Positions 2,157 through 49,867 of a DNA stretch of 64,000 nucleotides are shown in pieces; within the stretch, counting starts at the first letter, position 1; every line of letters begins with the position of its first letter. The stretch spans positions 17,422,001-17,486,000 of the forward strand of contig CM059432.1 of NCBI GenBank assembly GCA_030390025.1, given 5' to 3'. Under the pieces are notes generated by a model. The model had not been told where the DNA came from. It did no database searches and saw only the letters and a list, made by a program, of their open reading frames with translations. The DNA comes from Squalus acanthias. Taxonomy: Eukaryota. The translations under genes and the position numbers were made by a program.

Positions 2157-4740
2157 TTCCAGCATTTTCCCAATGACAGATGTTAGGCTAACTGGCCTAT
2201 AGTTTCCTGCTCTCTGTCTCAATCCTTTCTTGAATAGGGACGTTACATTTGCGGTTTTCCAAACCGCTGGGACCTTTCCAGAATCTAAGGAATTTTGGAA
2301 GATTACAACCAATGCATCCACTATCTCTGCAGCCACTTCTTTTAAGACCCTAGGATGCAGGCCATCAGGTCCAGGGGACTTGTCAACCTTTAGTCCCATT
2401 AGTTTGCCTAGCATTTTTCTCTAGTGGTAGGGATTGTTTTATGTTCCTCCTTCCCTTTTGCCCCTTGATTATCTATTATTATTGGGATGCTTTTAGTGTC
2501 TTCTAACATGAAGGCAGATACAAAATATTTGTTCAAAGTCTCTGCCATTTCCTTGTTTCCCATTATTAATTCTCCAGTCTCATCCTCCAAGGGACTAACG
2601 TTTACTTTCGCTACTCTCTTCCTTTTTATATACCTGTAGAAGCTCTTACTGTCTGTTTTTATATTTCTTGCTAGTTTACTCTCATAATCTATTTTCTCCC
2701 TCTTTATTATTTTTTTAGTCATCCTTTGCTGGTTTCTAAAAATTTTCCAATCTTCTGGCCTACCACTAATCTTCGCAACATTGTATGCCTTTTCTTTCAA
2801 TTTGATACCCTCCTTAACTTCCTTAGTTAGCCACGGATGGTTCTTCCTTCTCTTAGAGTTTTTCTTTCTCACTGGAATATATCTTTGTTGAGAGTTATGA
2901 AATAGCTCCTTAGATGTCCGCCACTGCTTATCTACCAGCTTACCTTTAAATCTACTTTCCCAGTCCACTTTAGCCAACTCTGTCTTCATACCTTTGTAAT
3001 TGCCTTTATTTAAGTTAAAGACACTAGTTTCAGACCCAAGTTTCTCACCCTCAAACTGAATGTGAAATTCTATAATGTTATGATCACTTTTCCTGAGAGG
3101 ATCCTTTACTATGAGATCATTAATTAATCCTGTCTCATTACACATTACCAGATCTAAAATAGCCTGTTCCCTGGTTGGTTCCACAACGTATTGTTCTAAG
3201 AAACCGTCCTGAATACACTCTATGAACTCGTCCTCAAGGCTACATTTGCCAATTTGATTTGTCCAATTTATATGAAGATTAAAATCATCCACGATTATTG
3301 CAGAACCTTTCTTACAAGCCTCCATTATTTCTTGATTTATACTCTGTCCTACAGTGTAGCTACTGTTAGGGGGCCTATAGACTACTCCCACCAGTGACTT
3401 CTTTCCTTACTATTTCTTATCTCCACACAAACTAATTCTACATCTTGATCTTCCGAGCCAAGATCATTTCTCACTACTGTACTGATCTCATCCTTTATTA
3501 ACAGAGCTACCCCACCTCCTTTTCCTTTCTGCCTATCCTTCCGAAATGTCAAATACCTCTGAATATTCAGTTCCCAGCCTTGGTCACCTTGCAACCACAT
3601 CTCTTTAATGGCTATCAGATCATACCAATTTATTTCTATTTGTGCCGTCAATTCATCTATCTTGTTACGAATACTGTGTGCATTCAGATAAAGAGCCTTT
3701 AATTTTGTCTTTTTACCATTTTTCCCTACTCAGACCCTATTTGATGGTGCACTCTTATGTTTGTACGCTCTGTCCCTTCCTGTCACACTGTTATCACTAC
3801 CCCAATCGCTACCCTGAATTATTGCCTTGTCCTTTCTTTTTAACTTTCTAAATTTCCCCTCATCTGAACCCTTCCCCCCACTATTTAGTTTAAAGCCCTA
3901 TCTACAGCCCTAGTCATTCGATTCGCCAGGACGCTGGTCCCAGCATGGTTCAAGTGAAGCCCGTCCCAACGGAACAGTTCTCTCTTTCCCTAGTACTGAT
4001 GCCAGTGTCCCATGAATCGAAACCCATTTCTCCCACACCAATCTTGAGCCACACATTCAACTCTCTGATCTTATTGACCCTATGCCAATTTGCTCGTGGC
4101 TGAGGTAGTAATCCAGAGATTTTTACCTTTGTGGTTCAGCTTTTTAATTTAGCCCCTAGCTGCTCATACTCCTTCAGCAGAACCTCTTTCTTAGCCTTAG
4201 CTATGTCATTGGTACCTACGTGGACCACGACAACTGGATCCCACCCTTCCCACTCCAAGTTCCTCTCCAGCCCCGAGGAGATGTCCTTAACCATGGCAAC
4301 ACAGCCTTCGGGACTCACGCTCTCGGCTGCAGAGAACTGTATCTCTCCCCCTAACTATATTGTCCCCTACCACTACTACATTTCTTTTTACTCCCCCAAC
4401 TTGAATGGCCCCCTGTACCATGGTGCTGTGGTCAGTTTGCTCATCCTCCCTGCAGTCCCTGCTCCCATCCACACAGGCTGCAAGAACCTTGTACCTGTTG
4501 GACAAGTGCAAGGGCTGAGGCTCCTCCAATGCTACCTTCTGGATCCCCATACCTGCCTCACTCGTAGTCACACCCTCCTGTCCCTGACCACGGCCCAAAT
4601 TTGAAGTATTTAACCTCAGGGGTGTGACTGCCTCCTGGAACAAAGTGTCCAGGTAACCCTCCCCCCTCCCTGATGCATCGCAGTGTCCGAAGCTCGGACT
4701 CCAGCTCGTCAACTCTGAGCTGAAATTCCGAGTATAGTTT
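2157..4740 (-). mobile_element. CR1 LINE 5' half: ORF1 (esterase) and ORF2 APE endonuclease plus linker, RT missing, frameshifted
   Basis: ORF1 fragments VDELESELRTL and PVVVVHVGTNDI (SGNH esterase). Endonuclease motifs FRKDR..GKGGGVALL, GVVYRPPN, DFN, ILDLV and SDHN. Linker KSPGPDGLHPRVLKE...NYRPVSLTS. Confidence 0.92.
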
Positions 4741-5506: not shown

Positions 5507-6883
5507 TGTAAGCTTCGCAAAATTCCCCAGAAACTCGTATCGAACCCTAAAAGGGGCGATTTTTTAGATTTTTCCCCACGAATTTGGGATGATGGGACAT
5601 AAGTGAAGTGATTTGAGGTAAAAAAACCTCAGTTTTGGACATTTTAAAGATCAGGGAAGAAAAACCCTGAGGAATAATGACTTTTGAAAATGACTATGGG
5701 AACAAAAAAACACCTTTGCGAAGGGGTGTGGCGAGGCAGTGGACAGCTTTTGGCGTCAAGCTGTCTGGAATTTGTTTGCACTGCAATCCAGGCAGGAGGA
5801 AGAACCTCACCCAAAACCTCACAACACATCCAAAATTGAATAATTCAAGACACCTTTTGAATATCCCCAGGCCCAAACAGGATGCCAGAAGCCTGTAAAC
5901 AATAAAACATCTAGTACAGCCATTACTTCACCAAAAACCAATCAGCCAGGTATCTATAGGGACAAGATTTGGCGTGTAGATAAATGCCCTGCCTAAATGG
6001 GAGTCATCGGAAGCCATCAGGACAATTTAACACCAAGTTAAATACATCAAAACTTAACAAGCCCGCAAAACTAAGACAAAGGGTCTGAACAGTATAATTG
6101 AGGGCCTAATCCCCCAAGAAAGTCTCTCTCAGCTCTGTTCCAGTTGCAGCAAGTTCCAGCAAGACACTACCAGCCACACGACACGAGTAGGAGGAGGAGA
6201 GAAGCAGCAAGGCCACGAGGCGAGATCGGAGGCAAGGACAGACTAGGTCAGGCAAGGGCTAGAGCTGAGGCCACTGGGAGCGAGTCGGCATCGCTCAGCA
6301 CATGGTCTAGCACTAGCAGCCACTAGCCAAGGTCACTGGAGGCTAGGAGTGAGTCGGCATCACTCAACCCATGGTCCAGCCCCAGAAGGTACCGCCCCGA
6401 CAAGCCTCCAACGCAACAAAACTCGATGACCAGACCACCATCGCAGATTTCACAGACCGGTACCACGTGGGGACGGCAGGCTCCAAAGGACAAAAAGAGA
6501 GTACCTCAAAATCGCAATCAACTTACCTGGCTGGATTTCGCACTGTCAAAACCCCTGTTTGGTGAGCATTATCCCTGATCTCCTGTAACCAAAACCTAGC
6601 TAGATAGTGGGATTTTTGGGAGGGATAAAGGTTTTTGTATATTGTCATTCTTCCTCGCCTGTACCGTGTGTTCCCCAACCTGTTTAAGTGTTAAGTGTGT
6701 TTTAAGTTTGTTACCTTTTCTTTCAATAAAAGTCAAAATTCTTTCATTGGAACCTGTTGTCTACTGCATCTTTTGTTCACAACCCCCAAATAAGTCCAAG
6801 GTCCAGAACCAGGGGCGTGGGAGTGATTTGAACCGCTTGCTGAGTCAGAGGTGAGGCTGGCCCCTACCACACCACCCCCTACA
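5507..6883 (+). repeat. 5' LTR (1377 bp)
   Basis: Starts TGTAAGCTTCGC and ends CACCACCCCCTACA. Both ends align with the solo LTR at 48406-49867. CCAAT at ~5938, TATAATT at 6093, AATAAA at 6725. Confidence 0.9.
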
Positions 6884-6886
6884 TAA

Positions 6887-6904
6887 TGCCGACTGCGGCA
6901 GGAC
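6887..6904 (+). promoter_or_regulatory. Primer binding site, tRNA-Arg(UCG) type
   Basis: TGCCGACTGCGGCAGGAC, 3 nt after the LTR, matches TGGCGACCGCGGCAGGAC (complement of the recalled vertebrate tRNA-Arg-TCG 3' end plus CCA) at 16 of 18 positions. Confidence 0.75.
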
Positions 6905-6956
6905 TTGGCAAAGGGGTTGTGAAGCAGTAGACACTGATTCGGAAGAGAGAACTGTA

Positions 6957-8707
6957 ATGGAAGAAAGGATTTCAGATTATGTGTTCAGCAAGGTGAATAT
7001 GGAAAAGAAGTGGGTCACTAATCTGTTAAAGACTGGGCGCCCGTTAGATGCAACAGCTAAATGGACAGAAGGGAAGGATCATAAAAAAACCTTAGAAAAG
7101 GCAGTCTGGCTGATGTGCTTCAAGAAACAGATCCAACTTTTGGACAGACTCGTTGAAGCACAGGCAGCCGAGTTTCGGGAGTCAGCCCTGGAAGTCTAAA
7201 CAAAGGCCCTAGCAGGGGAAAAGTTACTGTTAGCATTGCAGGCGCTAAACCAGGAAAGGGTGCAGTTAGTGGGGGAGCATAAGACCCGGCAGGAATATTT
7301 ACAGTGAAGGTCACAGAGGCCAAGAATAATGAGCTGAGGTTGCGGAAAAAGAATGCCCGCCTGGCAAAACAAGTAAGAGAGCAGCAGGAGACAGTAAAAG
7401 GCTTACAGGTAGCCTATAAGGTAATGAGCGCACAGGGGTTTGAGGATGCAGACCATGGCCCCTGCCAGAAGCAGATAGAGAGTCTCAACCGTGCTCTAAG
7501 GAAGGCAAAAGGCATAGTGTGCCTCATAAGCCTGAGTGCAGCTCGGGTCGACTTTACAGGGAACCTGGGGAGAATGGTTCAGACACCACAGATAGTGCCA
7601 AGGGACGACCCGGTTGAGGAGCAGGAGGGCCCACGACCACCACCCATAGCGCCAAGCTTTAGCGAAGTCTGGCAAGAAGAGGGGGTGGAGTTAGGGGCAG
7701 AAGCTGAGGTGGAAAAACCCCCGCAAGAGAGGCTGGGACCGGGGCCAATGTGCCCGGCCCGGCAGCAAAGGTTTGGCCCACCCACTGATAACGGGGATGG
7801 GGGACCCCTCCAAAACCAGTTCGTAGTTCCCCACGGGACCCAACAGCTCAGGGCTATGGTAAGCCACCTGAGTAAACTCACCCAAAAGGGGGACCCCTCA
7901 ATCCACTTCATGGAAGTGGAACAGGCAGCAGGCATCAATGACTGTGATGATGCCGAGATGGCAAAAATGTTCCTGTTCTCACTGGATGGCAAGCTATACC
8001 AGTCCCTGTCTGCTGAGAGCAAGAGAGGACAGAATGGGTATGCTGCCATCAGAGAGGAAGTTTTAGAGGCCATGGGGATGAATGAGGGAAGTCCTTTCTC
8101 CCGGGTGGAGAAAACAGTGCAGCTCGAAGGGGAGACCCCACAGGCTTTCGCAGACAGGCTGTGGCCCGTGTACAGGGGTGCTTGTAATGGGGATCTCGAC
8201 AGGGCTCACCTAAACCGGGGCAAGCTGGCCCACTGGCTCCGAAGCCTAGTGGCAAACAGCTTGCCACGAATCAAAACCAAGGCTGAGCTTTGGTTTGACC
8301 TGAGGGACCCCCGGGGCACCGAAGAGGCAGTGGTCAGACAGCTGACCCTGGCCTACCGGAATGGTGGAGGGGCTGAAGAGGCCCCACCAAAAGGGAAAGT
8401 GCATGAAATAAAGCCCGGCCAGGGTAGGAAGGAGTGGCATCAGGAAGGGAATAACCCTTCCAGCACAAGGCTTAACTGTTACGGGTGTGGGAAGGATGGT
8501 CACTGGAGGAAGGAGTGTAAGAATCCTTGGAAAGATAACAAGGGAAAGAATTCCTCAACCCCAGCCCAAAAGGCAGAGACAAGGATCCCTCCCGCCATGG
8601 TCGAGTCATTTTTGGACGCCATGAGGACCCTATTGACTGGCCCAGGGAAGGTAGCAGCAACCACCGGTGCTCTGACCCCATCTGCCCAATACAACCCAGG
8701 CCTATGA
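6957..8707 (+). pseudogene. gag: Gag polyprotein (~580 codons; one stop at 7197-7199 and one frameshift near 7290-7305)
   Basis: ATG 53 nt after the PBS. Coiled-coil-like N-terminus, Pro-rich linker, capsid-like region (QLEGETPQAFADRLW) and zinc knuckle CYGCGKDGHWRKEC. Confidence 0.85.
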
Positions 8708-9847
8708 CTAGAACCAGCGCAGCCTGTCTACCTGTGTTCCCCGGGATACGATGGTAAGATGGGGGTGGAGAAAGTGCAGGGGAGATGTTTGGTGGACACT
8801 GCAGCTGCCAGCACGGTGGTCCATTCGGAAGATCTGACCAATTCACCCAGGTCTAACGGGGTCCCGTACAGTTTAATGGGATTCACAGGGAACAAGCAGG
8901 CTGGGGCAATGTCCAAACCTTTGGACATAGATTTAGGATCCCTCCATACCACGTGGGAGGGTAACCAAAAGTCCGGCAAGTTGGCCAAGCAGGGGGCCAG
9001 GGAAGGAGAGTTCTGGGATCCCTGTAAAGCAGGTCCGGTAGCTGCAATCCGGGACAAGGGAGGCACACAGGAGGTAGCTTTGCCCCCGAACTTAAAGCAG
9101 GTCCAAGCCCAGAATCCCGTCCTTAAGGCCGTCCTGGTAAAGAGAGAGAATGGGGAGTCCCTAGAAGGTCCGTTCAGGGCAGAGGACGAGATTTTAAAAC
9201 AGAGTCACTGGCAAGCAGCCAGTAACCTGGGGAGCCAGCACCAGAAAGATCGGCTGCTGTTAGAACCCCAGAGAACCCACGAGTGGGAGATTGACCAGTG
9301 TAAACTGTTTAAACCTAAAAGGGAACAGCCAGCAAAGGTGGACTGCCCCCAAGTTAGAAATCCTCAGCCTGCAGCATTAGGCTGCAGAGAGTTACCTGCC
9401 CCCGACACAGGTTTAGAAGAGGTACAGCCTGAGGATAGAAATCCCCAGCCAGCAGCTGTGGCAGACTCACAGACTGCAGCGGTGAGGACAGGGGCTTGTA
9501 TCACAGAAGGGTATACTCCATCGATCATGTGGGACGCAGGCACTCCCCCAGTGGCCAGAGCCCTAAGAAGGTCACCACAGCCTAAACCACCTTGGTCTCC
9601 AGTGTACCAGTTTAAAGGGTCCCACCCAAAGAGGGTTGTAACCCGTAAAGAAACGCCCAAGGTCAGGGATCAGTCTGAGGACAGGGATCCCCAGCCTACA
9701 GCCTCCTGCAGAGAGGGTCTCACAGAGGCAGCTGTGAGCCAAGAACACAAGAAGGGTCCCCAGCCTGCGATCTCAGGCTGCGAGGAACCCACAGGACAGG
9801 ACAGGGACTCAAAAGCAGCCACAGCAAAGGGGGGCAGTGTGCTGTAG
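8708..9847 (+). pseudogene. pol: Internally deleted pol, in frame with gag: protease, RNase H C-terminal remnant, integrase-flanking remnants and a repetitive tail
   Basis: CLVDTAAASTV (aspartic protease DTG-like). GNQKSGKLAKQGA (RNase H GNxxADxLAKxGA). LKQVQAQNPVL (pre-integrase). IDQCKLFKP (integrase C-terminal-like). No RT YxDD or integrase DDE core is visible. Confidence 0.75.
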
Positions 9848-16013: not shown

Positions 16014-16636
16014 TGTCTATCAGAGGTTTGAGAAAGATTAAGAAAGAAAGACTTGCATTTATATAGCGCCTTTCATGACCAGCGGACATCTCAAAGCGCT
16101 TTACAGCCAATGAAGTACTATTTGAAGTGGAGTCACTGTTGTAATGTGGGAAACACAGCAGGCAATTTGCGCACAGCAAGGTCCCACAAACAGCAATGTG
16201 ATAATGACCAGATAATCTGCTTTTTTTTGTGTTATGTTGGTTGAGGGATAAATATTGGCCAGGACACCGGGGATAACTCCCCTGCTCTCCTTCGAAATAG
16301 TGCCATGGGATCTTTTACGTCCACCTGTGAGAGCAGACGGGGCCTCGGTTTAATGTCTCATCCGAAAGACAGCACCTCTGACAGTGCAGCACTCCCTCAG
16401 CACTGCACTGGAGTGTCAGCCTAGCTTTATGTGCTCAGGTCCCTGGAGTGGGACTTAGAACCCACAACCTTCTGACTCAGAGGCGAGTGTGCTACCCACT
16501 GAGCCACAGCTGACACTGGTTAATTAATTAAGTATGTTTGCTGTGCCACATATTGGTTATCATGAGTTGAAAGATAGGTCACGCAGAATAATATTTCTCA
16601 ATATCTAAAACATGTGGGTTCGTTGGGTTATTCCAA
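16014..16636 (+). repeat. Left arm of a ~620-bp inverted duplication (partner 18342-18960)
   Basis: Near-identical reverse complement, including the non-SINE flanks on both sides of the embedded SINE. Confidence 0.95.
16040..16517 (-). mobile_element. Full-length tRNA-derived Deu-domain SINE (SacSINE1-like)
   Basis: tRNA-like head (GTGGCTCAGTGGGTAGC...GGGTTCTAAGTCCC), Deu-like core (GTCTTTCGGATGAGAC..AAACCGAGG..AAAGATCCCATGGCAC) and tail GGCGCTATATAAATGCAAGTCTTTCTT. Confidence 0.85.
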
Positions 16637-16705
16637 GTCATATACCATTCTGACTTGGAGATATATCGCCATTTCTTCATTGTCAAAATCCTGGAACTCC
16701 CTACT

Positions 16706-18048
16706 TAGAACATAAGACATAAGACATAGGAGCAGGAGTAGGTCATTTGGCCCCTCGAGCCTGCTCCACCATTCAACAAGATCATGGCTGATCTGATCTT
16801 GGCCTCAACTCCACTTCCCTGCCCGCTCCCCATAACCCTTGACTCCCTTACCTTTCAAAAGTCTGTCTATCTCCACCTTAAATATATTCAATGACCCAAT
16901 CTCCACAGTTCTCTGGGGAAGAGAATTCCAAAGATTCACAACCCTCTGGAAGAAGAAATTCCTCCTCATTTCTGATTTAAATGGGTGCCCCCTTATTCTG
17001 AAATTATGCCCCCTAGTTCTAGATTCCCCCACAAGGGGAAACATCCTCTCTGCATCTACTCTGTCAAGCCCCTTCAGAATCTTACGGGGCAATAATTCGG
17101 TTGCTTTGCGTCTCTCATTAGTGCCCTAAGAGGGCGCTAATGGGGCGCAAAGCAACTAGCACCTGGGTGCGGCAATGTTTGCACCGCTCACGAAATTCAC
17201 CAAACATTTTGCGGTGGTGCTAAACACTACCGCCACAATCTCCTGCACCCGCAGATCGTGACGTCATCGAGCGTGTAACGCCCCGGAAGCGCCCCTGACC
17301 AGATATTGAGTGGCGCCTGCTGCTAGCAACGACAGGTTGAGGGGAACGTTTTGCAGTCGGGAAGGGACTGGGGGAGCGCTATTTAAAGGCGGCCGCTTCC
17401 TGCCTTTTTTTGTCGGCGACATTTTTGCACCACGCATTCTGAGAAAGAGAACGACTTCTGGAGCGATTCAACGCTGCGTGAAGGAGTTTTGGGTACTGAG
17501 CAGCACTTTGCAGGTTAATTTTGATTTGACCTTCCTTGCATCGATTTAGAAGAGACTTTGGGGGCTGCACTCTGAGCTCTTTCCCTGGGCCTCTGTTCTT
17601 TCCAGCAGAATTGATGTACAGGTCTCTCCAGGCCGAGATTCAAGGCTACAATGAGCAGGGTGTGGATGAAGAGCAAGAGCGACCCTCCCCTTTAAGAACT
17701 GGCCGGCGCCAGTCTGTCTGTATTCCATTGCTAACTGACATCACATGAGCTTCACCAGCGCTCTGAGATAGCGCCTCGCTCCTTGGCCTTAGCACCTTAA
17801 GAGAGGTGTGTAGCGCCTGATTTAGCGCTCCAATCACCTCCAGGGGTGATAGAAGCCAAGTTTGCAGTCAGAGGCAATAATTAGCGCCAGGCGCTAAACT
17901 TTGTGCCCGGCCGATAATTGTGCCCCAAACGGGGCGATACCGAATTTCTTCCCCTGTATGTTTCAATAAGATCCCCTCTCATTCTTCTAAACTCCACTGA
18001 GTATAGGCCCAACCTGCTCAACCTTTCTTCATGAGACAACCCCTTCAT
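16706..18048 (-). mobile_element. CR1 3' end split by the MITE at 17086-17954
   Basis: KILKGLDRVDAERMFPL...RTRGHN...NLWNSLPQ; ACATAAG tandem tail. Confidence 0.85.
17086..17954 (+). mobile_element. Harbinger MITE family A
   Basis: Colinear with 11972-12863; ends GGGGCAATAATTCGG / CCGAATTTCTTCCCC; degenerate 3-bp TSD. Confidence 0.85.
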
Positions 18049-18341
18049 CTTAACAGCACTGTGGGAGCACCTTCATCACACGGATTGCAACAGGTCAAGA
18101 AGAATATCCACCAGCACCTTTTCAGGGCGACTAGGAATGGGCAATAATAGCTGGCCTTGCCAGTCACGCCCACTTCCCGAGAATGAATTCCAATAAGTCT
18201 CTGGCACAATGCTATGACTGGCCACCAGGTGGTTGTAGAGGGCAGGTCTCCCTTCCTATGTAGAAGTATGAGGCCTCTACTTACACTACAGATTTGGCTT
18301 CCAAGATTGCAGTTACATCACGCTGTTGCTTTAGTTCCTTA

Positions 18342-18960
18342 TTGGAATAACCCAACGAACCCACATGTTTTAGATATTGAGAAATATTATTCTGCGTGAC
18401 CTATCTTTCAACTCATGAGAACCAATATGTGGCACAGCAAACATACTTAATTAATTAACCAGTGTCAGCTGTGGCTCAGTGGGTAGCACACTCGCCTCTG
18501 AGTCAGAAGGCTGTGGGTTCTAAGTCCCACTCCAGGGACCTGAGCACATAAAGCTAGGCTGACACTCCAGTGCAGTGCTGAGGGAGTGCTGCACTGTCAG
18601 AGGTGCTGTCTTTCGGATGAGACATTAAACCGAGGCCCCGTCTGCTCTCACGGGTGGCCGTAAAAGATCCCATGGCACTATTTTGAATAAGAACAGGGGA
18701 GTTATCCCTGGTGTCCTGGCCAATATTTATCCCTCAACCAACATAATACAAAAAAAAGCAGATTATCTGGTCATTATCACATTGCTGTTGGTGGGAGCTT
18801 GCTGTGCGCAAATTGGCTGCTGTGTTTCCCACATTACAACAGTGACTCCACTTCAAATAGTACTTCATTGGCTGTAAAGTGCTTTGAGATGTCCAGTGGT
18901 CATGAAAGGCGCTATATAAATGCAAGTCTTTCTTAATCTTTCTCAAACCTCTGATAGACA
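18342..18960 (-). repeat. Right arm of the inverted duplication (contains a Deu-SINE at 18461-18934 on +)
   Basis: Reverse complement of 16014-16636. Confidence 0.95.
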
Positions 18961-19528: not shown

Positions 19529-21240
19529 GTGTCAACCGTGGTTCAGTGGTAGCGCTTTTGCCTCTGAGTTAGTAGGTCATGGGTTCAATCCCCACTCCAG
19601 GGCGGTGTAAGGGGGTGGTGTTTTTGTGTCAGCTTTACCTCTGACTTCTGAGCGGTTCGAATCGCTCCCACTCCCTTGGTTCTAGACCCTGGACTTATTT
19701 GGGGGTTGTGATACAAAGGTGCAGCAGACAACTGAGTTTGATGAAAGAACTTCGATCTTTATTCAAGAAAATAAAACACAACACAAACACTCTTAACACT
19801 CTAAAGGTGGGGAACACTTCGGTACAAGCGAGGGAAATAACATTAGAAGAATACTTCACCCCTCCCAATCCCACTTCACTAGCTAGGTTGGACTCTGGAG
19901 AACCAGGGATAATGCTCACCAAACGAATCCTTGACAGTTGAGAGTTAGGGTTTAGAGTCTTTTGAGTAAAAAGTTTTGTAAGGCCCTTGTTGCCGCGAGG
20001 TGTCCGATGGTCACTGAGGCGGTCGCTCTGGTTTCTTCTTGCGTGTCGGCCTGCTTCTGGAGCTGTTGGCCTTCTTTGTTGAACTGTTTCTGTTGAACTC
20101 TGCCTCTGTTTAAACTGTCTTCTTCTGAGCTGTGGAACTGCCTTCTTGCAGAACTGTAACTGTCTTCTTGCAGAACAGGCTTTCAATTGAACTCCAACTG
20201 CAGAACTGCCTTCTGTTGAACTTGAACTGTTGTTACTGGAGAACTCGAACTTGTAACTGTTGTCACTGCTTGATGGGCCTTCAATTATACTAAATTGAAG
20301 TGGCCTTAATCAAAACCAAATCAAATCCCGGTCATTGTAAGACCACATTAACAGTAACGACTTTACTAGCGTGTTAACTGGTTTTGTAAATGTGTGAAGT
20401 GGTTTCAGGATAGCTCCATCCTGTCGATCTGCTGTTTAATCGGAGTTTGAATTGTCCTCATGTTTTGGGTTTCTTGACTGGGTCTAGGACTTCTATAGAA
20501 TATTTGCTTTATGCATGTCTTTAATGGGTTCTGTAAACGGTTTGATGGGGCCTGTTGTTTTGGGTGGGACTGCCTTCTCCCAGGGTCTATTGTCAAAATG
20601 TTAATGCATGCTGGGGCTTTGAGTGAGATCATTCCGGTTCCCCAGACAAGCAATTAACTGCAATACCCAAAACTGCTCTTACAGAGGTCGAACCTAATTT
20701 CCTTCACAGCCTTTTCTCCCTTTACAGGCCCAGACATGTTTTTAAAATGCCAAAACTTGGTTTTTGGTCTTAAATTCCTTATGTTAGGCCCAAATGCATT
20801 TTTATCACTCTGAGGTAGTTCCAAAGTCCTTTTTCCTTAGGTTTTGGGGATCTGCAAATTTTGGAAACCTTACAGCGGTGCATATAATCTAGACTTAGTT
20901 CTAGTATTGAAGGATTGCTGTACTGTCAAAAGTGCCGTCATTTGGGTGAGATGTTAAACAAGACCCTGTCTGCCCTCTCAGGTGGACGTTAAAGTTCCCA
21001 TGGCACTATTCAAAGCAGAGTAAGGATGTCCTGGTGTCCTGACTAAGATAAATCCCTTAAACAAAATGTTTATCTGGTCATTTCTCTCGTTGCTGTTTGT
21101 GGGAGCTGGCTGTGCGCAATTCGGCCATGCATTCCCCTACATTACAACTGTGACTACACTGCAAAAGTATTTTAATTGTCTGTGAAGCATTTTTGGATGG
21201 TCTGAGATTGTGAAAGATGCTATAAATACAATTCTTTTTG
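19529..21240 (+). mobile_element. Deu-SINE interrupted by the solo LTR at 19606-20874
   Basis: Head at 19529-19605 (GGGTTCAATCCCCACTCCAG); body and tail resume at 20875. Confidence 0.75.
19606..20874 (-). mobile_element. Solo LTR (1269 bp), same superfamily as 5507-6883
   Basis: TG...CA termini, 4-bp TSD GCGG on both sides; shares the TATA block, GTGAGC block, AATAAA and U5 with the other LTRs. Confidence 0.92.
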
Positions 21241-25529: not shown

Positions 25530-25944
25530 ATTGTACGCTTTGGGAGGTTTCTGGCAAACGTACTGAGGCCCTAATAAGTACAAGTTCTTTCTTTCTTTCT
25601 CAGCTTCCTATTCCAGCTATGCACACTTCCTCTTAATTTTGCAATTTGCTCCCTTCCTGTTGTTTATCTAGGCCTTGTTTTGCAATATTTCTGTGCTGCG
25701 CACGTACAATTTTCCTGCATCCATAACTGAAATACTCAATGCCCTTTAATGTTGGTTATTCAGCGCAGTCACCTCTCCCTCCTGCTGTGCACATCTGCTC
25801 CCTTGTATTGTGCACCAGCTTGTCCATGCAAGAAAGAAGCGAGCAAGTTAGTGGCAGCCTAACTAAGATATTTTGGGGTTGTGCACGTCATGATTGAATA
25901 GTGTGGATGTGGTGGGAAAGGTGGCAGAGCCGCGGGAAGGAATA

Positions 25945-26628
25945 GTGAGGAGATCGGCAGGTGTGGAGTGCGTGAGGAGTGAGGAGACCAGCAGGTGTGG
26001 AGTGTGTGTGGTGAGGAGACCAGCAGGTGTGGAGTGTGTGTGGAGTGAGGAGACCAGCAGGTGTGGAGTGTGTGTGGAGTGAGGAGACCAGCAGGTGTGG
26101 AGTGTGTGAGGAGTGAGGAGACCAGCAGGTGTGGAGTGTGTGTGGTGAGGAGACCAGCAGGTGTGGAGTGTGAGGAGTGAGGAGACCAGCAGGTGTGGAG
26201 TGTGTGAGGAGTGAGGAGACCAGCAGGTGTGGAGTGTGTGTGGAGTGAGGAGACCAGCAGGTGTGGAGTGTGTGTGGTGAGGAGATCGGCAGGTGTGGAG
26301 TGTGTGTGGAGTGAGGAGACCAGCAGGTGTGGAGTGTGTGAGGAGTGAGGAGATCGGCAGGTGTGGAGTGTGTGAGGAGTGAGGAGACCAGCAGGTGTGG
26401 AGTGTGTGTGGAGTGAGGAGACCAGCAGGTGTGGAGTGTGTGTGGTGAGGAGATCGGCAGGTGTGGAGTGTGTGAGGAGTGAGGAGACCAGCAGGTGTGG
26501 AGTGTGTGAGGAGTGAGGAGATCGGCAGGTGTGGAGTGTGTGAGGAGTGAGGAGACCAGCAGGTGTGGAGTGTGTGAGGAGTGAGGAGATCGGCAGGTGT
26601 GGAGTGTGTGAGGAGTGAGGAGACCAGC
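25945..26628. repeat. Minisatellite, 28-35-bp unit GAGGAGA(CCA/TCG)GCAGGTGTGGAGTGTGT(GTG/GAGGAGT), left block
   Basis: Directly visible tandem array. Confidence 0.97.
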
Positions 26629-28332
26629 ATAGAAACATAGAAACATAGAAAAATAGGAGCAGGAGTAGGCCATTCGGCCCTTCCATCCTGCTCCACCATT
26701 CAATATGATCATGGCTGATTCTCTATCTCAATACCATATTCCCGCTCTCTCCCCATACCCCTTGATGCCTTTTGTGTCTAGAAATCTATCTATCTCCTTC
26801 TTAAATATATTCAGTGACTTGGCCTCCACAGCCTTCTGTGGCAGAGAATTCCACAGGTTCACCACCCTCTGAGTGAAGACATTTCTCCTCATCTCAGTCC
26901 TAAATGTCCTGCCCCGTATCCTGAGACTGTGACCCCTCGTTCTAGACCCCCCAGCCAGGGGAAACATCCTCCCTGCATCCTGTCTGTCTAGCCCTGTCAG
27001 AATTTTATACGTTTCAATGAGATCCCCTTTCATTCTTCTAAACTCTAGTGAATACAGGCCTAGTCGACCTAATCTCTCCTCATACGACAGTCCTGCCATC
27101 CCAGGAATCAGTCTGGTGAACCTTCGCTGCATTCCCTCTGTGGGAAGTATATCCTTTCTTGGGTAAGGAGACCAAAACTGCACACACTACTCCAGGTGTG
27201 GTCTCACCAAGGCCCTGTATAACTGTAGTAAGACATCCTTGTTCCTGTACTCAAATCCTCTTGAAATGAAGGCCAACATACCATTTGCCTTCCTAACTGC
27301 TTGCTGCACCTGCATGTTTGCTTTCAGTGACTGGTGAACAAGGATACCAGTTCCCTTTGTACATCAACATTTGCCAATCTATCACCATTTAAATAATACT
27401 CTACCTTTCTGTTTTTCCTACCGAAGTGGATAACTTCACATTTTTCCACGTTATACTGCATCTGCCATGTATTTGCCCACTCACTCAACTTGTCTAAATC
27501 ACCTTGAAGCCTCTTTACATTCTCCTCACAACTCACAATCCCACCTAGTTTCGTGTCATCAGCAAACTTGGAAATATTACATTTGATTCCCTCATCCAAA
27601 TCATTGATATATATTGTGAATAGCTGGGACCCAAGCATTGATCCCTGCGGTACCCCACTAGTCACCACCTGCCACCCTGAAAAAGACCCATTTATTCCTA
27701 CTCTCTGTTTCCTGTCTGTAAACCAATTTTCAATCCATGCCAGTATATTATCCCCAATCCCATGTGCTTTAAATTTGCACACTAACCTCTTATGTGGGAC
27801 TTTATCAAAGGCCTTCTGAAAATCCAAATACACCACATCCACTGGTTCTCCCTTATCTATTCTACCAGTTACATCCTTAAAAAATTCCAGTAGGTTTGTC
27901 AAACATGATTTCCCTTTCATAAATCCATGTTGACTTTGTCTCATCCCGTTGATATTTTCTAAGTGTCCTGTTATCACATCCTTTATAATAGACTCTAGCA
28001 TTTTCCCTACTACTGATGTTAGGCTAACCGGTCTGTAGGTCCCCATTTTCTCTCCCTCCTTTTTTAAATAGTGGGGTTACATTTGCCACCCTAGAATCTG
28101 CAGGAACTGTTCCATAATCTATAGAATTTTGGAAGATGACAACCAATGCACCCACTATTTCCATGGCTACCTCTTTTATACTCTGGGATGCAGATTATCA
28201 GTCCCATTAATTTCTCCAGCACTATTTTTTTACTAATACTAATTTCCTTTAATTCCTTCCTCTCACTAGAGCCTTGATTCCCTAGCATTTCTGGGAAGTT
28301 ATTTGTGTCCTCTTTCGTGAAGACAGAACCAA
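26629..28332 (-). mobile_element. 5'-truncated CR1 LINE (RT and 3' end) inserted in the minisatellite
   Basis: YRPVSLTS, QHGF, YLDFQKAFD, SGVPQGS, FADD; (CTATGTTT)n tail. Confidence 0.95.
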
Positions 28333-28339
28333 AGCAAGC

Positions 28340-30030
28340 TTGGAGTGTGTGAGGAATGAGGAGACCAGCAGGTGTGGAGTGTGTGTGGTGAGGAGACCAG
28401 CAGGTGTGGAGTGTGAGGAGTGAGGAGACCAGCAGGTGTGGAGTGTGTGTGGTGAGGAGACCAGCAGGTGTGGAGTGTGTGTGGTGAGGAGACCAGCAGG
28501 TGTGGAGTGTGAGGAGTGAGGAGACCAGCAGGTGTGGAGTGTGAGGAGTGAGGAGACCAGCAGGTGTGGAGTGTGTGAGGAGTGAGGAGACCAGCAGGTG
28601 TGGAGTGTGTGAGGAGTGAGGAGACCAGCAGGTGTGGAGTGTGTGAGCCGTGAGGAGACCAGCAGGTGTGGAGTGTGTGTGGTGAGGAGACCAGCAGGTG
28701 TGGAGTGTGTGAGGAGTGAGGAGACCAGCAGGTGTGGAGTGTGTTTGGTGAGGAGACCAGCAGGTGTGGAGTGTGTGAGGAGTGAGGAGACCAGCAGGTG
28801 TGGAGTGTGTGTGGTGGGGAGACCAGCAGGTGTGGAGTGTGTGAGGAGTGAGGAGACCAGCAGGTGTGGAGTGTGTGTGGTGGGGAGACCAGCAGGTGTG
28901 GAGTGTGTGAGGAGTGAGGAGACCAGCAGGTGTGGAGTGTGTGTGGTGAGACCAGCAGGTGTGGAGTGTGTGTGGTGGGGAGACCAGCAGGAGTGGAGTG
29001 TGTGAGGAGTGAGGAGACCAGCAGGTGTGGAGTGTGTGTGGTGAGACCAGCAGGTGTGGAGTGTGTGTGGTGGGGAGACCAGCAGGTGTGGAGTGTGTGA
29101 GGAGTGAGGAGACCAGCAGGTGTGGAGTGTGTGTGGTGAGACCAGCAGGTGTGGAGTGTGAGGAGTGAGGAGACCAGCAGGTGTGGAGTGTGTGTGAGGA
29201 GTGAGGAGACCAGCAGGTGTGGAGTGTGTGTGGTGAGACCAGCAGGTGTGGAGTGTGTGAGGAGTGAGGAGACCAGCAGGTGTGGAGTGTGTGTGGTGAG
29301 ACCAGCAGGTGTGGAGTGTGTGAGGAGTGAGGAGACCAGCAGGTGTGGAGTGTGAGGAGTGAGGAGACCAGCAGGTGTGGAGTGTGTGTGTGAGGAGACC
29401 AGCAGGTGTGGAGTGTGTGTGGTGAGGAGACCAGCAGGTGTGGAGTGTGTGTGGTGGGGAGACCAGCAGGTGTGGAGTGTGTGTGGTGGGGAGACCAGCA
29501 GGTGTGGAGTGTGTGTGGTGAGGAGACCAGCAGGTGTGGAGTGTGTGTGGTGGGGAGACCAGCAGGTGTGGAGTGTGTGTGGTGGGGAGACCAGCAGGTG
29601 TGGAGTGTGTGTGGTGGGGAGACCAGCAGGTGTGGAGTGTGTGTGGTGAGGAGACCAGCAGGTGTGGAGTGTGTGTGCTGAGGAGACCAGCAGGTGTGGA
29701 GTGTGTGTGGTGAGGAGACCAGCAGGTGTGGAGTGTGTGAGCCGTGAGTAGACCAGCAGGTGTGGAGTGTGTGTGGTGGGGAGACCAGCAGGTGTGGAGT
29801 GTGTGTGGTGAGGAGACCAGCAGGTGTGGAGTGTGTGTGGTGAGGAGACCAGCAGGTGTGGAGTGTGAGGAGTGAGGAGACCAGCAGGTGTGGAGTGTGT
29901 GTGGTGAGGAGACCAGCAGGTGTGGAGTGTGTGTGGTGAGGAGACCAGCAGGTGTGGAGTGTGTGTGGTGAGGAGACCAGCAGGTGTGGAGTGTGTGTGG
30001 TGGGGAGACCAGCAGGTGTGGAGTGTGTGA
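28340..30030. repeat. Minisatellite, right block
   Basis: Same unit as 25945-26628, with different variant types. Confidence 0.97.
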
Positions 30031-30932
30031 GCAGTCCCAGTAGAGTGATTGGCAGCTGAAGACGCAGGAGAGAGGAACAGGTCGTAGATCAAAAGAAAAA
30101 CACCAACAAACCTAGCAACACTTAAAAAAGACAAATAATCTAAAATGTAGATGTGGAAAAAAGTTAATAGAAGCGAGGAAGATGGAATTCGGAGAAAAAT
30201 ATGCCAATATTTGAAAAGAAATATAAGAAAATATAATAGGGGAAAAAAAGAAAATGGATAAATGCAGTACTGAGCTTATAGAGCTAAACAGGTAGGATTT
30301 AAAAACATAAAGGGTAGAAGTTGGCCCACACTGCGCCCATTTTTTGGGAGTAGAACGGGCGCAAATCATTACCAATTCAGCGGTGGGATGGCCTGTGCCC
30401 GGGCCCACGCCTAACACGGGCAATGGGCCGATGAATATGTTAACGAGAGGGGCGTGGGCTGCACCCGCCTGCAGGGGTTGGCGTGGGGCCTGTGCTGTTT
30501 TCGAGCTCGGGCCTAATCTAAATTAATTCGACGAGCTGCCGGCGCGATGCGCGTTCCCTGCTGGGCGGCTCGCTGATTGGGAAGGGCGGGCCATCCTACG
30601 GGGTGGCCACCATGTTAAAGTCCTGCAGCTGCACCTTAAAAGCGAGGTGCTTTCGATGGTGAGGGGCAGCGACCAGTGAGCTTGTGCAGCAGCCGGCAAA
30701 GTGACTTCCAACAGGGTCCCGAGGTTCTCTGACGCAGCTGTGGAGGGGCTGACTGAACAGTTAAACCAGCAATAAGGAAGTTCCCCCATCCCAACGGATG
30801 GGCGACGGGAGTCAGGACAAGTCAGTCAACATTCAAATGACCGTACAGTTGTCTGAGTGCTTTAAATGGTGCAGCAGTCATTGTGTAACTTTGTGACATG
30901 CCTACTTTGCCCATCCACTTGGTATAAGGTAG

Positions 30933-31307: not shown

Positions 31308-33140
31308 TGGGGAATTTTAACCCCAAAAAACGGGTGGGTTGGTTTCGGGTGGAGGCTTAAAGAGTTAAAAATCAGAATCTTGACCCCAAACCCGCCTCCC
31401 ACCCTCCCACTTCTGGCTTTAGTGGAGGTGGGACGGGGGGCAGGCAGCCAACCCGTTCGCAGGAGACGGGTTGACACTTTAAATATTATAATGAGGCTGC
31501 GTGCCTCTTGGCGATCCACCATTTTAAATATAACTGTGGGCGAGCGGGTTTACCAGCTCTTCCGACGCCACCCCCCAGCCTTCCATCGCCCCTGCCCTTC
31601 TGACCTCCCCCCTCCGGCCGTCCTCCCCTCCCCTCCAGCCTTCTGACCCTCCTCTCCAGCCTTCTGACCCCCTCCTCCGGCCTTCCGACCCTCCCCTCCA
31701 GCCTTCTGACCCTCCTCTCCAGCCTTCTGACCCCCTCCTCCGGCCTTCTGATCCCCCCTCCAGCCTTCTGACCCGTCCTCCAGCCTTCCGACCCCCCTCC
31801 CAGCCTTCCGACCCCTCCTCCAGCCTTCCGACCCCCCTCCAGCCTTCCGACCCCTCCTCCAGCCTTCCGACCCCCCTCCAGCCTTCTGACCCCCTCCTCC
31901 GGCCTTCTGATCCCCCCTCCAGCCTTCTGACCCCTCCTCCAGCCTTCCGACCCCCCTCCCAGCCTTCTGACCCCTCCTCCAGCCTTCCGACCCCTCCTCC
32001 AGCCTTCCGACCCCTCCTCCAGCCATCCGACCCCCCTCCAGCCTTCTGACCCCCCCTCCAGCCTTCTGACCCCCTCCTCCGGCCTTCTGACCCCCCCTCC
32101 AGCCTTCCGACCCCCCTCCAGCCTTCTGACCCCCTCCTCCGGCCTTCTGATCCCCCCTCCAGCCTTCTGACCCCTCCTCCAGCCTTCCGACCCCCCTCCC
32201 AGCCTTCTGACCCCTCCTCCAGCCTTCCGACCCCTCCTCCAGCCTTCCGACCCCCCTCCAGTCTTCTGACCCCCCCTCCAACCTTCTGACACCCCCCTCC
32301 AGCTTTCCGACCCCCCCTCCAGCCCTCTGACCCCCCCTCCAGCCTTCTGACCCCCCCTCCAGCCTTCTGACACCCCCTCCAGCCTTCTGACCCCCCCTCC
32401 AGCCTTCTGACCCCTCCTCCAGCCTTCTGACCCCCCCTCCAGCCTTCTGACCCCCCTCCAGCCTTCTGACACCCCCTCCAGCCTTCTGACCCCCCCTCCA
32501 GCCTTCTGACACCCCCTCCAGCCTTCTGACACCCCCTCCAGCCTTCTGACACCCCCTCCAGCCTTCTGACCCCCCCTCCAGCCTTCTGACACCCCCTCCA
32601 GCCTTCTGACACCCCCTCCAGCCTTCTGACACCCCCTCCAGCCTTCCGACACCCCCTCCAGCCTTCCGACCCCCCCTCCAGCCTTCTGACCCCCCCTCCC
32701 AGCCTTCTGACCCCTCCTCCAGCCTTCTGACCCCTCCTCCAGCCTTCTGACCTCCCCCCTCCGGCCGTCCGACCCCCCCCTCCGGCCTTCTGACCTCCCC
32801 TCTCTGGCCTTCCGACCCCCCCTCCGGCCTTCTGACCTCCCCCCTCCGGCCTTCCGACCCCCCCTCCGGCCTTCCGACCCCCCCTCTGGCCTCCGATCCC
32901 TCCTCTGGCCTTCCGACCACCCCGCCGATCCCTCCCTCCCTCCTCTCTGTGACCTGGTGCCGCAGACCTACCCACTTGACAGCCGGCCTCTCCATCTGGC
33001 TGGCTGCGGGCGGGAAACAGAGATTCAAAATGTTAATCAGGCCCTGCCGTTAAATTCGGCAGGGCCTGAGGGAAACCAGTTCCACATTGCAGCCACCACT
33101 GCCCTGCTCCCTACCCGCCTCCAAATTAAAATTCCGGCCC
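31308..33140 (+). mobile_element. MITE family B with an expanded internal minisatellite
   Basis: GGGGAATTTTAACCCC ... TTAAAATTCCGGCCC termini; shares flanks of the repeat with 21876-23520. Confidence 0.7.
31570..32930. repeat. Minisatellite, ~19-23-bp unit CCAGCCTTC(T/C)GACCCCCCT
   Basis: Directly visible tandem array with a strong C/G strand skew. Confidence 0.97.
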
Positions 33141-41632: not shown

Positions 41633-42585
41633 GGAAACTTGTAAATATCATTTTGAAGGCCAGGGATCTGGCTTAACACCTCTCTATCTTATTTTTGTGC
41701 TTCTATCTGCACTGGAACAACCTGAAGTTGGGCATAAGACTCAGAAAACACAAGCTGAAGTCTAAGCACTTGGGCGATAGAGGGCCGCAACACCATACCT
41801 CAACAAGTGTCAGCATCATCTGGAGAGGAGGTAAAAAAAAGGGGGGTGGGGTGGGTGGGGGGTGAGGAGGAAATGGAAGAATTAAAAGAGACTGTTAAAT
41901 GGATTGTTTATTGGCTGTCCTCCATAGCGCAACAGCCTTCCAACACTCATGTGTGAAGAATGTCTACTTAGATAAGGTACCAGATGGTAATGAGCACTAT
42001 TGGACTCTACCTCAGAATCTTCAAATGAAAAGGGAAGAAAAACAGGAAAATATAAGTCATACTTTGGATACTCTTAAAGGCATTGGGATTTTGTGTGAAC
42101 AGCCTGCTGCCCATTATTGTAAGAACACAGGGTTAGTGGTAGAACAGAGGTCAATGAGTTGATTGAAGCGTACAGCTATGCTCTCGTTCTTCAGCCATAT
42201 CTCAGTCTGTAATTCCAACATGGAACATTTGTATTTAGACACTCTAATTGATTGATTCAAATTTAATTCTCATTGTCTAGCCAGCAGTCGGTAACGCATG
42301 ATAGACGTTTGGATTTGAAACAATCAACTTTAAACAGTGGAACAAACTCAAATTCCTAGCTGTCAGCAGAGCCTAAATGTTTGGCTTATAGAAAGGTACC
42401 AGTGGTTCATCCTGAGACATTGCTTCCAATGACTGTTGTGTGTCATTGGCGCTGTGCAATAGGGGAGAGGGAGCCCGTTATAAAATGGGACTGCTACGCA
42501 CTGGTTTCTCCGTCTCCTAAAACTCACCCCACTAACTCCCATTACTCACCTCTCTGCCTTCTGTTACTGACATCTTCGCTGAAAT

Positions 42586-48405: not shown

Positions 48406-49867
48406 TGTAGGGGGTGGTGTGTGGGGGTCAGGTTCACCTCTGACTCAGTGAGCAGTTTGAATCGCTCCCACGCTCCTGGTTCTAGACCTTGGACTTATTT
48501 GGGGGCTGTGAACAAAGGTGCAGTAGACAACAGGTTTTGATGAAAGAATTTTGACTTTTATTAAAGAAAAAGGGAACAAACTTAAAACACACTTAATGCT
48601 TAAACACAGGTTGGGGAACACACGGTACAGGCGAGGGAGAATTACAATATACAAAAAAACCCTTATCCCTCCCAAATCCCACTGCCTAGCTAGGTTTGAT
48701 TCCAGAAGATCAGGGACAATGCTCACCAAATGACAGTTCTTGACAGTTGAGAGTTAGGGTTTAGAGTATTTTGAGTAAAAGGTTTCATAAGGCCCTTGTT
48801 GCCGCGAGGTGTCCGATGGTCACTGAGGCGGTCGCTCTGGTCTCTTGAACCGCTGGCCTTCTTTGTTGTACTTCTTTCTGTTGAACTCTGCCTCTGTTTA
48901 AACTGTCTTCTTCTGAGCTGTGGAACTGCCTTCTTGCAGAACTGTGGAACTCCTTGCTGCTTCTTCCTTGCTTCTCCTGAACTCTGTAACTCCAGCCCTG
49001 ACTTCTGCTGAAAACAGGCTTTTCGATTGGACTGCAGAACTGCCTTCTGTTGAACTTGAACTGTTTTACTGGAGAACTCCTTGATGGGCCTTCAATTATA
49101 CTAAATTGAAGTGGCCTTATCAAAACCAAATCAAATCCCGGTCATTGTAAGACCTCGTTAACAGTAACGACTTTACTAGCGTGTTAATTGGTTTTGTAAA
49201 TGTGTGAAGTGGTTTTCAGGATAGCTCCATCCTGTCGATCTGTTGTTTAATCGGAGTTTGAATTGTCCTCATGTTTTGGGTTTCTTGACTGGGCCTAGGA
49301 CTTCTATCTTTATGCATGTCTTTAATGGGTTCTGTAAGTGTCAAATGTTTTTTTGGGGGATGGTTTGCATCCTGTCGATCTTCTTGGCTGATTGGTTTTT
49401 GATGGGATGATGGGCTGTGAAGCTGTGTACTGGACGTTTTATTGTTAGGAATTCTGTTTGGACCTGGGGATTTCAAAAGGGTCTTGGATTATTCATTTTT
49501 GGATGTGTATATGAGGTTTTGGGTGAGGCTCTTCCTCCTTGGTTGGATTGCAGTGCAAACATCTCCCAGACAGCTTGGCTCGGTCCCAATACCCAAAAGC
49601 TGTCCACTGCCTCACCACACCCTTTCCTGCAGCCTGTGTTTCTGTGACTGCAGGTTTACCCAATGGCCCTTTTAAAAAGGTGTCTTATCATCCAAAAGTA
49701 ATTTTCCTCACGGTTTTTCTTCCCTGATCCTTAAAAATGTCCAAAACTGAGGTTTTGACCTCAAATTCCTTCATTTAGGTCCCATCATTCCAAATTCGTG
49801 TTAAGATCCAAAACTCACCCCCTTTAGGGTTGTATTCGAGTTTCTGGGGGATTTTGCGAAGCCTACA
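48406..49867 (-). mobile_element. Solo LTR (1462 bp)
   Basis: TG...CA termini and a 4-bp TSD (GCTC); splits the CR1 endonuclease coding sequence. Confidence 0.93.

What the first reader, a model, noticed from the sequence alone, without database searches (positions are those of the whole stretch)
6884..8830. Retrovirus-like LTR element with gag and pol joined by a UGA-CUAG readthrough signal
Seen: gag ends ...GGC CTA TGA CTA GAA... (TGA at 8705-8707), and the protease (CLVDTAAAST) follows in the same frame with no other stop. The element has a tRNA-Arg(UCG)-type PBS, ~1.3-1.5 kb LTRs, 4-bp TSDs on the solo LTRs, and an RNase H remnant (GNQKSGKLAKQGA) of the cellular/retroviral GNxxADxLAK type. 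Established: UGA-CUAG is a strong stop-readthrough context; gamma- and epsilonretroviruses read through UAG, whereas many Gypsy elements use frameshifts or a single ORF. Inference: this is a chondrichthyan retrovirus-related lineage (possibly Loki-like) that makes Gag-Pol by UGA suppression and may be uncharacterised.
Basis: partly seen in the sequence, partly recalled or inferred. Interest (0 to 1): 0.72.

Follow-up and report, generated by a model that had tools for sequence, protein, structure and literature searches.

The report
Shark retrovirus with leaky UGA stop
This is a broken, polymerase-deleted copy from a large family of endogenous retroviruses, most likely in a shark, whose gag and pol genes sit in one frame on either side of a conserved UGA-CUA(G) stop that ribosomes likely read through, a signal type described for alphaviruses that my literature searches did not find reported for retroviruses.

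Summary
TGA-CTAG lies at 8705-8711 with protease in frame behind it, and it is a family trait, not damage: TGA in 58 of 58 fetched copies (40 CTA, 18 CTG) and in 96 of 100 and 98 of 100 listed genome-wide matches. The window copy is defective: gag is broken, RT and the integrase core are deleted in frame, and env and the 3' LTR are missing. Close relatives carry PR-RT-tether-RNase H-IN and an env-like gene behind the same stop. RT trees place them inside Retroviridae (99-100% support); a clade with Loki-type RTs is rejected (p=0.0002), and Gypsy is excluded. Snakehead retrovirus is the closest named reference by RT identity (45%), but a sister position is unresolved. More distant families in the genome use UGA-CGG plus a predicted GC stem starting at +12, as in VEEV and coltivirus. 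Readthrough is inferred, not measured. UGA at gag-pol junctions is already reported for four fish or frog retroviruses, and class III ERVs in cartilaginous fish are known; the type II contexts (UGA-CUA, UGA-CGG) were not found in print for retroviruses. Verdict: new variant of a known kind, interest 0.52.

The parts
5507..6883 (+). 5' LTR, 1377 bp, TGTA..TACA
   Evidence: matches 5' ends of other copies
6887..6904 (+). primer-binding site for tRNA-Arg(TCG), 16 of 18 matches; an ATG at 6886-6888 overlaps it
6886..8704 (+). gag, broken near 6900 (frame), 7197 (stop) and 7307 (frame); one CCHC knuckle at 8477-8518
   Evidence: homologs P0001 61%, P0002 42%
8705..8711 (+). UGA-CUAG stop context (type II readthrough motif)
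   Evidence: motif class from PMC13517186
8708..8956 (+). N-terminal part of protease, in frame with gag; catalytic motif degenerate in this copy; 18 nt shorter than in pol-bearing copies
8957..9140 (+). C-terminal end of RNase H and start of the integrase region, joined in frame after loss of about 2052 nt (rest of PR, RT, tether, most of RNase H)
9197..9376 (+). two short pieces of the integrase C-terminal region, joined in frame (core and SH3-like part lost)
   Evidence: match to P0014
9377..9847 (+). low-complexity C-terminal tail of Pol with an ALRRSP motif (9560-9577); the frame ends at 9845-9847
19606..20874 (-). solo LTR of a related subfamily, TSD GCGG
48406..49867 (-). solo LTR of a related subfamily, TSD GCTC

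Best explanation
This is a defective, pol-deleted copy from a large endogenous retrovirus family whose gag and pro-pol share one frame split by a conserved UGA-CUR stop, which ribosomes likely read through at a low rate to make Gag-Pol. Shown: frame, conservation of the stop and its context, domain order in pol-bearing relatives, retroviral placement of RT. Inferred: a near-cognate tRNA (Arg, Cys or Trp by precedent) decodes the UGA in a few percent of passes; CUA(G) alone would supply the leak in families A-E, while the UGA-CGG sister families would add a GC-rich stem starting at +12. The pol-less subfamily of the window was likely copied with enzymes from pol-bearing relatives, and it inherited the signal.
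For: TGA in 30 of 30 family-A loci, 12 of 12 family-B and 16 of 16 further loci that held the junction (one more fetched stretch, L091, did not hold it): 40 CTA, 18 CTG, no other codon. Genome-wide patterns with a free codon: 96 of the 100 listed (282 found) family-A matches are TGA; with a free hexamer 94 of 100 listed (205 found) family-B matches are TGACTA and 98 are TGA; 39 of 42 family-F matches are TGA, none CGA or CAA, although the CGG next to it shows heavy CpG decay. Pol-bearing copies have open frames of 600-670 codons before and 1000-1500 after the stop. The Pfam protease match begins at residue 17, before the first Met at residue 24; in families F, G and H the first Met lies just before the catalytic motif, so separate initiation would give a cut protease. 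Families F and G use UGA-CGG, the other type II hexamer, and F, G and H share a 7-bp stem from +12 (stop = +1 to +3), 83 nt long, 98.9% of cells paired against 30-66% when slid, the same start as VEEV and CTFV. Contigs of public runs from two other coded organisms (A, B) span the site; of their contigs one low-depth one has TGT and two have CTG. Precedent for gag-pol readthrough in SnRV and XtERV-S.
Against: No direct evidence of readthrough (no ribosome profiling, peptides or reporter). No stable local fold in families A-E (z -0.8 to +1.9 in 10 sequences; covariation term -1.42; a 6-bp candidate helix pairs in 89% of cells) and no rise in synonymous conservation after the stop (5 of 16 codons against 238 of 713 overall). 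CTR after the stop is weak evidence on its own: 21 of 84 shared Leu columns are CTR in all four families. The +12 stem has only one compensatory pair, shared by one family, and was picked from these same sequences. Family H has UGA-AGG, not a type II hexamer.
Confidence: 0.85

Rival explanations
1. Pol is made from its own spliced mRNA and start codon, as in foamy viruses, and the UGA is simply the end of gag.
For: The family branches near the base of retroviruses, unresolved with foamy virus and SnRV. Foamy use of a separate pol start is described in PMC8278194.
Against: No Met before the conserved start of the protease; gag and pol stay in one frame in all families examined; no contig joint skipping the stop with GT..AG ends was listed in four runs (contigs show presence only).
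Confidence: 0.06
2. The UGA is recoded in the RNA (A-to-I editing to a Trp codon) or read as selenocysteine.
For: UGA can be turned into a Trp codon by editing or decoded as Sec (established knowledge); one of 42 family-F copies has TGG.
Against: No A>G difference at 8707 in the contigs laid; no SECIS or other Rfam match near threshold in six loci; both type II hexamers appear, which fits plain readthrough.
Confidence: 0.04
3. The stop is a post-insertion mutation, or an accident fixed in one founder copy.
For: The window copy carries several private lesions.
Against: TGA is the state of nearly all copies in families whose RTs differ by about 50%; sense codons are scattered singletons one base from TGA; young pol-bearing copies with LTRs 98.6-99% alike carry it.
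Confidence: 0.01
4. In the pol-less subfamilies readthrough is still selected, either to attach the Pol C-terminal tail to Gag or to keep ribosomes moving along the RNA and so avoid nonsense-mediated decay. This adds to the best explanation and does not replace it.
For: All five large indels between the window remnant and a pol-bearing copy keep the frame (18, 2052, 831 and 141 nt lost, 81 gained, from block ends; about 0.4% by chance if independent); a second pol-less subfamily (L062 type) also ends in the tail in frame; SnRV Pol has an RRSPR motif in its tail too.
Against: dN/dS of the remnant between pol-less subfamilies is 0.6-0.8, against 0.26-0.48 for gag, so selection on the protein is weak; single copies were compared, which adds neutral change.
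Confidence: 0.4

Closest known systems
Snakehead retrovirus (SnRV) and SnRV-related class III ERVs (clade Huo of Xu et al. 2018; CmiERV lineage I of Han 2015)
   Same: Highest RT identity among named references (44.6% against 32-38% for Loki-type, 36.9% foamy-type, 37-38% WDSV-like, 37% gamma-like); gag-pol readthrough; RRSPR motif in the Pol tail; an arginine PBS and a Gag coiled coil (recalled for SnRV; the paper was not held).
   Different: SnRV has UAG-GGC. It is not recovered as sister (unresolved; AU p=0.11), and over RT plus tether its identity (37%) is no higher than that of the Loki-type rows. No accessory ORFs were examined.
Lokiretroviruses (Wang and Han, PMC7947760)
   Same: Tether plus second RNase H; env with weak likeness to Mononegavirales F proteins (PF00523 E 0.019; atlas score 0.75); one Loki-type integrase falls inside this clade with weak support.
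   Different: RT lies inside Retroviridae, apart from Loki (AU p=0.0002); no Gag similarity to a Loki-type protein (best E 0.18); the Loki paper's main text has no mention of readthrough or stop codons.
XtERV-S, SSSV, ZFERV, cane toad ERV
   Same: UGA between in-frame gag and pol.
   Different: Reported hexamers are UGAAGA, UGACGA and UGAAGU, not UGACUA or UGACGG; the XtERV-S context was not visible in the passages read; XtERV-S has a Ser PBS, dUTPase and a class I env.
Type II readthrough sites of alphaviruses and coltiviruses (SINV, ONNV, VEEV, CTFV) and cellular UGACUAG genes
   Same: Same hexamers; stem from +12 predicted in the CGG families, none clear in the CUA families, matching the reported dependence on structure.
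   Different: Unrelated viruses, so the likeness is convergent; measured there, only predicted here.
Gamma- and epsilonretroviruses (MoMLV, WDSV)
   Same: In-frame gag-pol with stop suppression.
   Different: UAG with type III context and, in gammaretroviruses, a pseudoknot; a separate RT clade.

Membership tests
Retroviridae | RT groups with retroviruses, apart from Metaviridae | tested here: met
   99/98 and 100/99, using pol-bearing relatives; the window copy has no RT
Retroviridae | PR-RT-tether-RNase H-IN order with two RNase H-type domains | tested here: met
   Pfam on L061 and L068 frames
Retroviridae | env gene with signal peptide, furin site and membrane anchor after pol | tested here: met
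   790-codon frame with RQRR and hydrophobic ends in relatives, read by eye; absent from the window copy
Retroviridae | TG..CA LTRs, tRNA PBS, short TSD | tested here: met
Lokiretrovirus | RT in the Loki clade, sister to sampled retroviruses | tested here: not met
   AU p=0.0002 for family plus four Loki-type rows; rows identified by short motifs of the published alignment
Lokiretrovirus | Env related to Mononegavirales F proteins | tested here: inconclusive
   PF00523 E 0.019-0.09; atlas lead 0.75; model unusable, pLDDT 36.5
Lokiretrovirus | Integrase related to CGIN1/NYNRIN | tested here: inconclusive
   relatives are annotated NYNRIN-like; quick IN tree has weak support; CGIN1 itself was not in the tree
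Metaviridae (Ty3/Gypsy) | RT within a Gypsy clade; single active Gypsy-type RNase H | tested here: not met
   Gypsy rows were labelled from their Pfam content
SnRV-like clade (class III, clade Huo) | Pol groups with SnRV | tested here: inconclusive
   best RT identity but unresolved placement; monophyly not rejected, p=0.11
SnRV-like clade (class III, clade Huo) | Arginine-tRNA PBS (recalled for SnRV) | tested here: met
   for the element; the SnRV side is recalled, paper not held
Type II readthrough site | UGA-CUA or UGA-CGG hexamer between two in-frame ORFs | tested here: met
   definition
Type II readthrough site | measurable readthrough | not testable with these tools
   needs a reporter, ribosome profiling or peptides

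The most novel reading that the evidence does not exclude
These families mark an undescribed early branch of retroviruses, shared by sharks, frogs and coelacanth, that pairs an F-type envelope with alphavirus-style type II readthrough in both forms (structure-light UGA-CUA; UGA-CGG with a +12 stem), starts Gag at an AUG inside the primer-binding site, and keeps readthrough even in pol-less derivatives. That would point to UGA readthrough as an old way of expressing retroviral Pol.
Probability: 0.3. Interest if true: 0.72.

Novelty: new variant of a known kind. Interest (0 to 1): 0.52.

Why it matters
Retroviral readthrough has been measured only in gammaretroviruses (UAG plus pseudoknot); a 2026 review says the cis-elements of fish and unclassified retroviruses are unclear. 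Here hundreds of young copies show a retroviral lineage using the two alphavirus-type contexts, with a predicted stem only where the context is known to need one. That gives a ready natural series for reporter tests of context against structure, and adds a character for sorting the poorly resolved base of the retrovirus tree. The window copy itself is an ordinary dead insertion.

Tried and rejected
PDB search with Gag gave only zinc knuckles. The pol remnant found no longer homolog. An RNase H family search found other ERV families, not the partner. Two viral-contig scans found no relative. My first guess that 'LEGPF' was an integrase GPY/F motif was wrong: it maps before the integrase zinc finger. 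The Env model had pLDDT 36.5, so no fold search was run; PDB sequence search with Env gave nothing. No RNA holder is listed for the stretch; the runs laid are contigs of guessed type and say nothing on expression. Rfam gave one sub-threshold match judged chance. A search of the CmiERV supplement for junction words did not locate a junction, so the stop of published elephant-shark ERVs remains unchecked. Earlier findings of this scan: none. The first tree was only the quick version; searches used LG+G4 without the mixture model, and 12 of 40 rows were dropped. In one search, 16 of 20 distant loci showed TGA 34-37 codons before the protease motif (9 CGG, 3 CAG, 2 TGG, 2 AGG); the other four were frameshifted, rearranged or lacked the motif. 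The frog and coelacanth junctions could not be read (proteins only). Literature searches behind the 'not found in print' statement; subscription journals and Repbase are not covered.

Full report
1. Observation. The window is G000:C8:17422001-17486000 of a 3.7-Gb genome. TGA lies at 8705-8707, followed by CTAG; the frame is open for 474 codons upstream and 379 downstream. The upstream frame has a CCHC knuckle and matches a skate protein at 42%. The LTR (5507-6883), the tRNA-Arg(TCG) PBS (16 of 18), the two solo LTRs with 4-bp TSDs and the RNase H remnant are all as described. The 7-mer alone occurs 7 times in the window, so the case rests on other copies.

2. The window copy. It is defective. 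gag is broken near 6900, 7197 and 7307. Behind the stop the frame is a patchwork of Pol pieces: the first 83 codons of protease, the end of RNase H and start of integrase, two pieces of the integrase C-terminus, and the low-complexity Pol tail. RT and the integrase core are absent, similarity to other copies ends at 9897, and no env or 3' LTR follows. Other copies of this subfamily are collinear across the PR-RNase H joint, so the deletion is a trait of a non-autonomous family (A). Its gag is 87-89% alike in DNA to pol-bearing family C, while the 3' pieces map best to family D; I infer recombination between co-packaged RNAs.

3. Conservation of the stop. TGA was found in 30 of 30 family-A loci and in 28 of 28 further loci of families B-E that held the junction (L091 did not hold it; L073-L080 repeat loci and are not counted twice): 40 CTA, 18 CTG. 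Patterns with free bases gave 96 TGA, 1 TAA and 3 single sense codons among the 100 listed of 282 family-A matches (this pattern fixed CTR), 94 TGACTA among the 100 listed of 205 family-B matches, and 39 TGA, 2 TAA and 1 TGG among all 42 family-F matches. In family F the next codon is CGG in 15, and CAG, TGG or TAG, the products expected from CpG decay, in 23 of the 39; no CGA or CAA occurs at the stop position, which argues against the stop being a decayed CGA. Contigs from two other coded organisms span the site, and a loose end in a third holds the same heptamer.

4. Pol-bearing relatives. A search with the skate Gag found family B. Its copies carry PR, RT, tether, RNase H, and integrase behind TGA-CTA, an env-like frame of about 790 codons with a furin site, LTRs of about 1.7 kb that are 98.6-99% alike, and 4-bp TSDs. 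At least 137 RT copies are 98-100% alike. Families C, D and E share the junction 34 codons before the protease motif. More distant families F and G use UGA-CGG and H uses UGA-AGG. Other ERV families in the genome also have UGA there (UGA-CGC in an epsilon-like family, UGA-CAG in family I), so UGA is common among this host's ERVs.

5. Placement. The representative search returned SnRV Pol (5 of 5 motifs of the published row), Loki-type, foamy-type, WDSV-like and gamma-like proteins, which I labelled by short motifs from Dataset S2 of PMC7947760; except for SnRV these labels are by motif, not by name. RT and RT-plus-tether trees put the family inside retroviruses (99/98 and 100/99), apart from Loki and Gypsy rows. 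Joining it with Loki is rejected (p-AU 0.0002). It groups with shark families F-H and frog and coelacanth proteins annotated NYNRIN-like (96/93 and 89/93). SnRV has the best RT identity (44.6%) but is unresolved (p-AU 0.11). The env shows only weak F-protein likeness and its model failed.

6. Mechanism. Shown: one frame, a conserved stop, conserved protease sequence between the stop and the first Met. Inferred: readthrough. UGACUA and UGACGG are the two type II hexamers; UGACUAG gives at least about 1.3% readthrough in human genes; VEEV and CTFV (CGG) need a stem-loop that starts at +12, whereas CUA needs structure only conditionally (PMC13517186). The shark families follow this split: F, G and H have a predicted 7-bp GC stem from +12 spanning 83 nt across three different amino-acid sequences (98.9% paired, one compensatory pair), while A-E show no stable fold and no extra synonymous conservation. 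The CTR codon alone is weak evidence (21 of 84 shared Leu columns are all-CTR). Splicing, editing and selenocysteine have no support but are not excluded by contig data. In pol-less copies all five large indels keep the frame, yet dN/dS is 0.6-0.8; the reason is open.

7. What is known. PMC13517186 (passages) lists UGA junctions in SSSV, ZFERV and a toad ERV with other hexamers, UAGGGC in SnRV, and experimental proof only for gammaretroviruses among retroviruses. PMC8278194 (passages) reports TGA in XtERV-S. PMC4422223 (first half of text; supplement searched) reports SnRV-related ERVs in elephant shark; PMC6001957 (passages) defines clade Huo; PMC11089739 (passages) finds most cartilaginous-fish ERV RTs in clade III. 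PMC7947760 (parts 1-2 of 4, term search, supplement parts 1, 68, 69 and searches; the file is cut at 300 of 318 pages) lists no chondrichthyan Loki hosts and does not mention readthrough. Also seen: PMC12193657 (summary, introduction, passages), PMC3835772, PMC13524379 and bioRxiv 2024.03.25.586437 (passages; its supplements were not seen), PMC12440569 (part 1 of 5), PMC9040795 (term search, no hits). The original SnRV paper was not held; its Arg PBS and Gag coiled coil are recalled. My searches found no report of UGA-CUA or UGA-CGG in a retrovirus; Repbase and subscription journals were not searched.

8. Verdict. A real, conserved, likely functional readthrough signal in an endogenous retrovirus lineage that is neither Loki nor Gypsy. 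The mechanism class and the ERV class are known; the context type and its pairing with a +12 stem appear new for retroviruses. New variant of a known kind; interest 0.52.

Noticed in passing
window 6886-6904; L061-L103 just after the 5' LTR: The gag frame's first ATG is formed by the last base of the LTR-PBS spacer plus the first two bases of the PBS, so the PBS encodes M-A-T-x-x-x. The spacer varies from 2 to 5 nt but ends in A in 28 of 29 copies listed, and the frame runs on into Gag in most; the skate protein model P0002 starts the same way. Gag may start inside the PBS.
   Followed up: partly
L081:867-3236: The env-like frame has a weak Ig-like match at its N-terminus (Ig_3 E 0.098) and a weak F-protein match after the furin site; frog protein P0005 also ends in an Ig-like piece after Pol.
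   Followed up: partly
L062, L064-L066, L069-L071: A second pol-less subfamily keeps UGA-CUG, then a duplicated piece of gag coiled coil joined in frame to the Pol tail, and retains env sequence.
   Followed up: partly
window 9560-9577; Pol tails of families B-E; P0098 residue 1345: An RRSPR-type motif is kept in the otherwise variable Pol tail and in SnRV Pol; it resembles nucleosome-binding arginine motifs (recalled, untested).
   Followed up: no
G000:C26, about 39.0-42.2 Mb; L127-L129: Tandem arrays of tRNA-Arg(TCG) genes at about 1.6-kb spacing; 422 matches genome-wide to a 22-nt 3'-end pattern.
   Followed up: no
L031-L060, L104-L106: At least four other young ERV families with retroviral RNase H, one epsilon-like with many near-identical 1190-codon pol frames and a UGA-CGC junction.
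   Followed up: partly
L102, L103 (G000:C1 near 125.5 Mb): Family-B copies with unusually long frames after the stop (2007 and 1650 codons), about 39 kb apart; cause not examined.
   Followed up: no
window 16044-18934; 25861-30155; 31562-32892; 40460-47376: A 593-nt inverted repeat at 97% (16044-16636 and 18342-18934), 32-34-nt and 20-21-nt minisatellites, and about 3-kb tandem blocks of LINE-like sequence.
   Followed up: no
window 2408-3729 (- strand): Endonuclease-bearing LINE-like frames (CR1-type by recall) upstream of the element.
   Followed up: no
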